Shown: piece after piece, positions 14,608 to 14,814 of the stretch
Position numbering within the stretch: position 1 is the first letter of the stretch
How the letters are laid out: each line of letters begins with the position of its first letter
NCBI RefSeq assembly: GCF_002854065.1
Contig: NZ_CP024147.1
DNA: 64,000 bases
Origin: Escherichia coli
Lineage (GTDB): Bacteria > Pseudomonadota > Gammaproteobacteria > Enterobacterales > Enterobacteriaceae
Strand: one strand, 5' to 3'
Made by a program: the position numbers and the translations under genes
Notes under the pieces: generated by a model
What the model was told of the DNA's origin: nothing
Databases searched by the model: none
What the model saw: only the letters and a program-made list of their open reading frames with translations

Positions 14608-14614
14608 GTAAAAG

Positions 14615-14641
14615 AGCCGGCCCAACGGCCGGCTTTTTTCT
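14615..14641 (+). terminator. rho-independent terminator after aceF
   Basis: AGCCGGCC-caac-GGCCGGCT followed by TTTTTT. Confidence 0.8.
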
Positions 14642-14814
14642 GGTAATCTCATGAATGTATTGAGGTTATTAGCGAATAGACAAATCGGTTGCCGTTTGTT
14701 GTTTAAAAATTGTTAACAATTTTGTAAAATACCGACGGATAGAACGACCCGGTGGATAATGGGCGTCATAAAAAAAACGTCAGACCCGCCGGAGATAAAT
14801 ATATAGAGGTCATG

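What the first reader, a model, noticed from the sequence alone, without database searches (positions are those of the whole stretch)
14608..14814. Intergenic regions are shorter than I recall for K-12 MG1655, including the lpd leader
From remembered MG1655 coordinates, four spacers are shorter here: aceF-lpd (207 bp versus about 324), cueO-gcd (46 versus about 200), hrpB-mrcB (131 versus about 195) and fhuB-hemL (34 versus about 157). In K-12 the lpd leader holds a sequence resembling an ERIC/IRU element (...CCCCAGGAGCTTACATAAGTAAGTGACTGGGGTGAG...); here that position reads GGTGG-ATAATGGGCGTCATAAAAAAAACGTCAGAC-CCGCCGG. I interpret these as presence or absence of ERIC/REP-type repeats between strains, not engineering. 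If correct, lpd in this strain has a much shorter 5' leader, which could change its independent expression.
Basis: partly seen in the sequence, partly recalled or inferred. Interest (0 to 1): 0.3.

Follow-up and report, generated by a model that had tools for sequence, protein, structure and literature searches.

The report
ERIC-free ancestral lpd leader, ordinary polymorphism
This E. coli strain lacks the small mobile repeats (ERIC, REP) that K-12 carries in four gene spacers; this is a common natural difference between strains, and for the lpd leader this strain keeps the original enterobacterial form while K-12 carries the insertion.

Summary
The window aligns with MG1655 112,981-175,789. 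The four spacers are 207/324, 46/201, 131/195 and 34/157 bp (window/K-12).

The K-12-only DNA is repeat DNA:
- An ERIC element in the lpd leader. It matches the ERIC2 and ERIC1R primer cores and has several copies per genome.
- REP clusters at cueO-gcd and fhuB-hemL, with about 39 and 9 places per genome.
- A GC-rich palindromic repeat at hrpB-mrcB.

All are common natural alleles. The short lpd spacer is in 1,990 of 5,426 complete E. coli genomes and the ERIC form in 3,433.

The lpd difference is a replacement, not a plain indel: 30 bp here stand where K-12 has 147 bp. The 30 bp are homologous to the leader of Klebsiella, Kluyvera and Atlantibacter. So this strain has the ancestral leader and K-12 has the derived one.

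The K-12 transcription start is published as 195 nt upstream of the ATG. With an identical promoter here, the inferred leader is 78 nt. It contains a small hairpin (-17 kcal/mol) in place of the ERIC hairpin (-81 kcal/mol). Any effect on lpd expression is untested.

One side result: in Enterobacterales, all length variation of this leader lies between two conserved complementary arms, and ERIC has entered that interval at four different positions in four genera.

Verdict: real, ordinary, a known kind of polymorphism.

The parts
14615..14640 (+). aceF intrinsic terminator: hairpin AGCCGGCC-caac-GGCCGGCT followed by a T run. Identical in K-12.
   Evidence: Sequence. The terminator scan finds the same 8-pair stem on the other strand. 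Conserved in all aligned Enterobacteriaceae.
14702..14730 (+). lpd promoter: -35 TTTAAA (14702-14707), 17-nt spacer, -10 TAAAAT (14725-14730). Identical in K-12.
   Evidence: Promoter scan. The motif TGTTAACAATTTTGTAAAAT (up to 4 mismatches allowed) is found in 117 of the 118 aceF-lpd spacers recovered: 115 fetched Enterobacterales loci plus the window and MG1655.
14737..14814 (+). Inferred lpd-specific 5' leader of 78 nt (195 nt in K-12), with the start site placed at 14737.
   Evidence: The K-12 start site is 195 nt upstream of the lpd ATG (PMC2759082). That is MG1655 127,717, which maps to window 14,737, 7 nt after the -10. This is an inference from an identical promoter; it was not measured in this strain.
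14749..14792 (+). Leader hairpin. Outer arms CCGGUGG (14749-14755) and CCGCCGG (14786-14792). Inner stem GGCGU (14762-14766) with ACGUC (14777-14781).
   Evidence: Minimum free energy -17.1 kcal/mol. The outer arms are paired in 98.8% of cells across 61 distinct leaders, with one compensatory change. Both arms are present in 104 of 117 leaders.
14756..14785 (+). 30-bp interior ATAATGGGCGTCATAAAAAAAACGTCAGAC, standing where K-12 has 147 bp (127,736-127,882) that contain the ERIC element.
   Evidence: Alignments. Homologous to the K. oxytoca, Kluyvera and Atlantibacter interior AC-ATGGGCGTAAAAACTATAGCGTCAGAC.
14805..14817 (+). Shine-Dalgarno AGAGG (14805-14809) and the lpd start codon (14815-14817). 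Unpaired in the predicted folds of both alleles.
   Evidence: Invariant in all 61 aligned leaders.
25536..25581 (.). cueO-gcd spacer, 46 bp. Three bp (25579-25581) stand where K-12 has a 158-bp REP cluster (138,677-138,834).
   Evidence: The short junction is in 2,459 genomes. The K-12 spacer matches a median of 39 places per genome.
52933..53063 (.). hrpB-mrcB spacer, 131 bp. It has one CCCTCTCCC-tgt-GGGAGAGGG hairpin where K-12 has two, flanking 64 bp more.
   Evidence: The K-12 element is multi-copy, with 1-6 places per genome, for example near ilvC.
61779..61812 (.). fhuB-hemL spacer, 34 bp. A 32-bp segment with the hairpin GCCTCGCCC-ggtg-GGCGAGGC stands where K-12 has a 155-bp REP cluster.
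   Evidence: The short junction is in 3,699 genomes. The long form is in 1,701 genomes, and the K-12 spacer matches a median of 9 places per genome.

Best explanation
The four short spacers are ordinary natural alleles that lack small repeat elements present in K-12. In the aceF-lpd spacer this strain carries the ancestral, ERIC-free lpd leader of the Enterobacteriaceae. Transcription from the unchanged lpd promoter should start at about 14737. That gives a 78-nt leader with a small hairpin whose arms are CCGGUGG and CCGCCGG, followed by an unpaired ribosome-binding site. In K-12, and in about 63% of E. coli genomes, an ERIC element entered the interior of that hairpin. In the Escherichia copy the original 30-nt interior was lost. 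The same two arms now close a 163-nt, very stable ERIC hairpin, and the leader is 195 nt long. Shown: the lengths, the homology, the allele frequencies, the repeat nature and the predicted folds. Inferred: the start site in this strain. Not tested: any difference in lpd mRNA stability or translation.
For: Spacer lengths and breakpoints. ERIC identity of the K-12 insert: primer cores; multi-copy; long hairpin, -81.2 kcal/mol, z = -6.65. No ERIC core anywhere in the 64-kb window. Allele counts: 1,990 short plus 3,433 long gives 5,423, which is every genome with the locus. Ancestral state: most Enterobacteriaceae spacers are about 199-213 bp without ERIC, and the window's 30-bp interior aligns with the Klebsiella, Kluyvera and Atlantibacter interiors. 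Start site upstream of the insertion: PMC2759082 and the promoter scan. Natural origin: 100% identity over 13 kb to isolate CUWW06. ERIC elements are 127-bp MITE-like repeats that are co-transcribed with neighbouring genes and vary between strains: PMC2229807, PMC3184786, PMC10969869.
Against: E. albertii carries the same ERIC allele with 1 mismatch in 322 bp, while the flanking genes differ by about 4.5%. So the ERIC allele is either old or has moved between species by recombination, and the order of events within Escherichia is not resolved. The Escherichia insertion has no clean target duplication and carries 20 extra bp (TGGTTAGGGTATTACTTCAC), so it was not a simple one-step insertion. The start site in this strain is inferred, not measured.
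Confidence: 0.9

Rival explanations
1. The ancestor of this strain had the ERIC, and it was lost by deletion or excision, leaving the short leader.
For: E. albertii and a divergent 'E. coli' lineage (E69) both carry the ERIC at the same site. ERIC could therefore pre-date E. coli. A few genera (L099, L107, L016, L093) have a truncated 52-nt leader ending in GACGACGGGTAT, identical to the K-12 ERIC right end. This looks like a deletion footprint.
Against: A deletion cannot recreate the 30-bp interior that aligns with the Klebsiella, Kluyvera and Atlantibacter leaders, including the inner stem GGGCGT...ACGTCAGAC. The ERIC allele lacks that sequence entirely. Another divergent Escherichia lineage (L035) has the short allele with its own point differences.
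Confidence: 0.04
2. The short spacers are artefacts: assembly collapse of repeats, or laboratory engineering.
For: Repeats such as REP and ERIC can be collapsed by short-read assemblers. Four spacers are affected in one window.
Against: The same junctions occur in 1,990, 2,459 and 3,699 complete genomes. In two cases the short alleles carry unrelated unique sequence in place of the repeat. The outgroups have the short lpd form.
Confidence: 0.01
3. The polymorphism is functional. ERIC-bearing and ERIC-free leaders give different lpd mRNA stability or translation, and both are maintained by selection.
For: Both alleles are at intermediate frequency (37% and 63%) and both occur in divergent Escherichia lineages. 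The ERIC copy is almost invariant between E. coli and E. albertii. ERIC in transcripts alters mRNA decay in Yersinia in an orientation-dependent way (reviews PMC2229807 and PMC3184786). All 12 ERIC copies found in lpd leaders of four genera have the same orientation.
Against: There are no expression data. The ribosome-binding site is predicted unpaired in both alleles. Divergence is also lowered for about 1 kb around the spacer, which fits a recombination tract as well as selection. Four insertions in the same orientation would occur by chance one time in eight.
Confidence: 0.25

Closest known systems
ERIC / IRU (enterobacterial repetitive intergenic consensus) elements: 127-bp MITE-like imperfect palindromes
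   Same: The K-12-only DNA in the lpd leader has the ERIC core, forms a long hairpin, is multi-copy and lies in a transcribed intergenic region. Presence or absence between E. coli strains is a described property of the family (reviews citing Wilson & Sharp 2006).
   Different: The window itself contains no ERIC. What it has at this site is the unoccupied ancestral sequence. The Escherichia copy replaced 30 bp and has no clean TA duplication, unlike the Serratia copies in the same leader.
REP / BIME (repetitive extragenic palindromes, bacterial interspersed mosaic elements)
   Same: The K-12-only DNA at cueO-gcd and fhuB-hemL consists of pairs of inverted GC-rich palindromes of about 35 bp, found at tens of places per genome.
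   Different: These are absent from the window at these two sites. At fhuB-hemL the window has an unrelated 21-nt GC hairpin that could serve as a terminator for the two convergent genes. Assignment to the REP Y and Z types rests on my memory of the consensus and was not tested.
ERIC-dependent control of mRNA decay in Yersinia (De Gregorio et al. 2005, as summarised in PMC2229807 and PMC3184786)
   Same: An ERIC co-transcribed with a neighbouring gene folds into a hairpin that can change RNase E access. This is the most likely way the K-12 allele could differ in lpd expression.
   Different: That work concerned ERICs downstream of genes. Here the element sits in a 5' leader, and nothing has been measured for lpd. 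The original paper could not be read.
GC-rich palindromic repeats of E. coli other than REP ('Box C'-type; name recalled from memory)
   Same: The hrpB-mrcB K-12 element (CCCTCTCCCTGTGGGAGAGGG CCGGGGTGAGGG...) is a low-copy GC-rich palindromic repeat.
   Different: The family name was not verified with any tool. The window keeps one of the two terminal hairpins, as expected from recombination between the two direct copies.

Membership tests
ERIC/IRU (applied to the K-12-only segment) | Conserved central core, the sequence targeted by primers ERIC1R and ERIC2 | tested here: met
   ERIC2 matches 21/22 at L001 17819-17840(+). ERIC1R matches 20/22 at 17797-17818(-), adjacent and divergent. Both primer strings occur together in 233 papers.
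ERIC/IRU (applied to the K-12-only segment) | Imperfect palindrome of about 127 bp that folds into a long hairpin | tested here: met
   A 129-bp segment runs from ACATACCC to GGGTATGA. The leader fold is -81.2 kcal/mol, z = -6.65, with 0 of 200 shuffles as stable.
ERIC/IRU (applied to the K-12-only segment) | Multiple dispersed copies per genome | tested here: met
   The K-12 spacer matches a median of 5 and up to 9 places per genome by megablast, which only detects copies about 85% or more identical.
ERIC/IRU (applied to the K-12-only segment) | Terminal inverted repeats flanked by TA, with target-site duplication | tested here: inconclusive
   The Serratia copies in the same leader show TA|TACCC...GGGTA|TA against an empty site. 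The Escherichia copy has the TACCC and GGGTA ends but no clean duplication, and it has 20 extra bp on the left.
ERIC/IRU (applied to the window, 14756-14785) | Any ERIC core or ERIC-like palindrome | tested here: not met
   No match with up to 3 mismatches in the 64 kb. The 30 bp align with ERIC-free leaders of other genera.
REP/BIME (applied to the K-12-only segments at cueO-gcd and fhuB-hemL) | High copy number of short GC-rich extragenic palindromes, often in inverted pairs | tested here: met
Inverted pairs are visible in the sequence.
REP/BIME | Match to the published REP (PU) consensus types | not tested
   Resemblance was judged by eye against the consensus as I remember it. No reference consensus was available in the tools.
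Known structured RNA families (Rfam) | A match to a curated covariance model in the lpd leader | tested here: not met
   Nothing reaches a gathering score. The only sub-threshold hits are driven by the aceF terminator or half of the ERIC.

The most novel reading that the evidence does not exclude
The two complementary arms CCGGUGG and CCGCCGG in the lpd leader define a conserved cis-acting RNA hairpin of Enterobacterales. Its position is fixed: 15-19 nt after the -10 in nearly all leaders, and its 3' end lies 16-19 nt before the ATG. Its interior is free to vary from 18 to 244 nt. That interior is a recurrent landing site for ERIC elements, always in one orientation. The ERIC-bearing and ERIC-free forms persist in Escherichia as an old or introgressed polymorphism that tunes lpd expression independently of aceEF.
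Probability: 0.2. Interest if true: 0.4.

Novelty: already known. Interest (0 to 1): 0.15.

Why it matters
The practical value is small. K-12 is not the reference state for the lpd leader. About a third of E. coli genomes (including O157:H7, CFT073, ST131 and E2348/69) and most other Enterobacteriaceae have a leader of roughly 70-80 nt without ERIC. Regulatory work on lpd done in K-12 may therefore not transfer directly. Lpd is the shared E3 subunit of the pyruvate dehydrogenase, 2-oxoglutarate dehydrogenase and glycine cleavage complexes, and its own promoter sets the E3 supply independently of aceEF. If the ERIC hairpin changes mRNA decay or translation, it would be a natural regulatory variant in central metabolism. 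The finding also gives a clean natural pair of alleles for testing what an ERIC does in a 5' leader.

Tried and rejected
1. Allele counts for hrpB-mrcB. The junction query and the K-12 spacer query both failed to separate the alleles. The deletion lies between direct repeats, so both forms cover the query, and low-complexity masking truncates hits. No frequency is given.

2. Primary ERIC papers. Wilson & Sharp 2006, Sharples & Lloyd 1990 and De Gregorio 2005 are not held. I could not check whether the aceF-lpd ERIC and its replacement by unrelated sequence are already tabulated there. I recall that Wilson & Sharp describe strain-variable ERIC loci, but this is not verified.

3. Literature on ERIC in the lpd leader, or on RNase III or autogenous control of lpd: nothing was found.

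4. Rfam: no family in the leader.

5. Covariation. Support for the outer stem comes mostly from sequence conservation. There is one compensatory pair, 1 of 500 shuffles reached the observed covariation score, and there is a clear register preference. The inner stem is paired in only 74% of cells because a second interior type exists in Citrobacter and Enterobacter. This is suggestive, not proof of an RNA structure.

7. Recombination versus constraint as the reason for the near-identity of the E. albertii spacer: the divergence profile is compatible with both.

Full report
**What the window is.** Megablast of the window against MG1655 110,000-182,000 gives collinear blocks from 112,981 to 175,789. 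Identity is about 97-99% everywhere except the yad fimbrial operon. The most variable 13 kb (34,000-47,000) is 100% identical to E. coli CUWW06, a wastewater isolate. The window is therefore natural E. coli sequence.

**The observation.**
- aceF ends at 14607 and lpd starts at 14815, so the spacer is 207 bp. In MG1655 it is 127,588-127,911, or 324 bp.
- Pairwise alignments give the other three spacers:

| Spacer | Window coordinates | Window (bp) | K-12 (bp) |
|---|---|---|---|
| cueO-gcd | 25536-25581 | 46 | 201 |
| hrpB-mrcB | 52933-53063 | 131 | 195 |
| fhuB-hemL | 61779-61812 | 34 | 157 |

- The complete list of differences of 20 bp or more holds these four plus an IS2 at 40525-41855 and a rearranged rpnC 3' end.

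**What the K-12-only DNA is.**
- In the lpd leader the window has 30 bp (14756-14785) where K-12 has 147 bp (127,736-127,882).
- The K-12 segment matches the ERIC2 primer at 21/22 and ERIC1R at 20/22, adjacent and divergent as in the ERIC core. Both primer strings occur together in 233 papers.
- The segment folds into a long hairpin of -81.2 kcal/mol with z = -6.65.
- The K-12 spacer matches a median of 5 places per genome at megablast stringency.
- The window has no ERIC core anywhere.
- The K-12 cueO-gcd and fhuB-hemL spacers match a median of 39 (capped) and 9 places per genome. They consist of inverted pairs of GC-rich palindromes, which is REP/BIME.
- The hrpB-mrcB element is a different GC-rich palindromic repeat, present at 1-6 places per genome. 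K-12 has two CCCTCTCCC...GGGAGAGGG hairpins flanking 64 extra bp, and the window has one.

**Population frequencies.**
- A 70-bp query across the short lpd junction matches 1,990 of 5,426 complete genomes. These include O157:H7, EC958, O127:H6 and APEC O2:K1; CFT073 also has the short form.
- The full K-12 spacer is covered in 3,433 genomes, including BL21 and O111:H-.
- The two counts sum to 5,423, the number of genomes with the locus. The site has just these two alleles, at 37% and 63%.
- The short cueO-gcd junction is in 2,459 genomes.
- The short fhuB-hemL junction is in 3,699 genomes and the long form in 1,701. K-12 is in the minority there.
- Counts for hrpB-mrcB could not be resolved.

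**Which lpd allele is ancestral.**
- A scan of one genome per species with the degenerate lpd start returned 120 Enterobacterales loci.
- Most Enterobacteriaceae spacers are 199-213 bp and lack ERIC.
- The window's 30-bp interior ATAATGGGCGTCATAAAAAAAACGTCAGAC aligns with AC-ATGGGCGTAAAAACTATAGCGTCAGAC of K. oxytoca, Kluyvera and Atlantibacter.
- The short allele is therefore the ancestral leader and the ERIC allele is derived. The ERIC allele has lost the ancestral interior altogether.
- Within Escherichia both forms are found in divergent lineages. E. albertii and strain E69 have the ERIC. Strain SCPM-O-B-8794 has the short form.
- The E. albertii spacer differs from K-12 at 1 of 322 positions, while aceF and lpd differ by about 4.5%. 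Divergence is also reduced for about 1 kb around the spacer. Constraint and recombination both remain possible.

**Consequences for the transcript.**
- The promoter is identical in the two alleles: -35 TTTAAA at 14702-14707 and -10 TAAAAT at 14725-14730.
- The K-12 lpd start site is reported 195 nt upstream of the ATG (PMC2759082). That corresponds to window 14737.
- The leader here is therefore inferred to be 78 nt.
- It is predicted to form a hairpin from 14749 to 14792 with an outer stem CCGGUGG/CCGCCGG and an inner stem GGCGU/ACGUC, at -17.1 kcal/mol.
- In K-12 the same outer arms close the ERIC hairpin.
- The Shine-Dalgarno sequence and start codon are unpaired in both predictions.
- Whether mRNA decay or translation differs is unknown. 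Reviews report orientation-dependent effects of co-transcribed ERICs on RNase E cleavage in Yersinia.

**Side result.**
- Both arms are recognisable in 104 of 117 leaders. In nearly all of them the 5' arm lies 15-19 nt after the -10 (two outliers at 32 and 120 nt). The 3' arm always ends 16-19 nt before the ATG.
- The interior ranges from 18 to 244 nt.
- The outer stem is paired in 98.8% of cells of 61 distinct ERIC-free leaders, with one compensatory change and a clear register preference.
- ERIC similarity is found inside this interval in 12 leaders, all in the same orientation: Escherichia 3, Serratia 5, Erwinia 3 and Raoultella 1.
- The insertion points differ between genera. In Serratia the insertion is clean, at a TA that is duplicated.
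- The hairpin interior thus looks like a recurrent ERIC insertion site. This is suggestive only. It does not change the verdict on the finding.

**Verdict.** What is there is a common, known kind of repeat presence/absence polymorphism. The useful correction is that this strain carries the ancestral lpd leader and K-12 carries the insertion.

Noticed in passing
window 40525-41855: A 1,331-bp IS2 is inserted in the yad fimbrial usher gene htrE, with a 5-bp overlap of the flanks (target duplication). It is absent from K-12 and present in the identical isolate CUWW06.
   Followed up: partly
window ~35000-46000: The yad fimbrial operon (yadC to yadN) is only 66-85% identical to K-12, while the flanks are about 98% identical. 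This is a strongly divergent allele of the whole operon.
   Followed up: no
window 33658-34865: rpnC has a 24-bp in-frame deletion relative to K-12 (at 34466). It is followed by a 69-aa ORF (34656-34865) that repeats the last ~60 residues of RpnC (direct repeats 34474-34585 and 34746-34857, 85% identical). K-12 has no such second copy.
   Followed up: partly
window 9921-10034 (-): The only Rfam match at gathering score in the window is the tp2 sRNA (103 bits), between pdhR and aceE on the opposite strand.
   Followed up: no
window 61780-61811: At fhuB-hemL the window has a 32-bp segment with the hairpin GCCTCGCCC-ggtg-GGCGAGGC where K-12 has a REP cluster. Only 20 of 5,426 genomes match this junction at 99% identity or more; most short alleles are about 96% identical.
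   Followed up: partly
L099, L107, L016, L093 (Silvania, Cedecea, Enterobacter MAG), lpd leaders: These have a truncated 52-nt leader ...CCCGGTGGACGACGGGTATAAATT... The stretch GACGACGGGTAT equals the right end of the K-12 ERIC, and the 3' arm is missing. This may be the footprint of an ERIC lost by deletion.
   Followed up: no
L005 (E. albertii) against L001 (MG1655), aceF-lpd spacer: The spacer, including the 147-bp ERIC segment, differs at 1 of 322 positions, while the adjacent genes differ by about 4.5%. Divergence is lowered for about 1 kb around it.
   Followed up: partly
L001 17736-17755 (MG1655 127,736-127,755): The 20 bp left of the K-12 ERIC (TGGTTAGGGTATTACTTCAC) contain GGGTAT, the ERIC right-end motif. 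This may be the remnant of a second ERIC, which could explain how the ancestral interior was lost.
   Followed up: no
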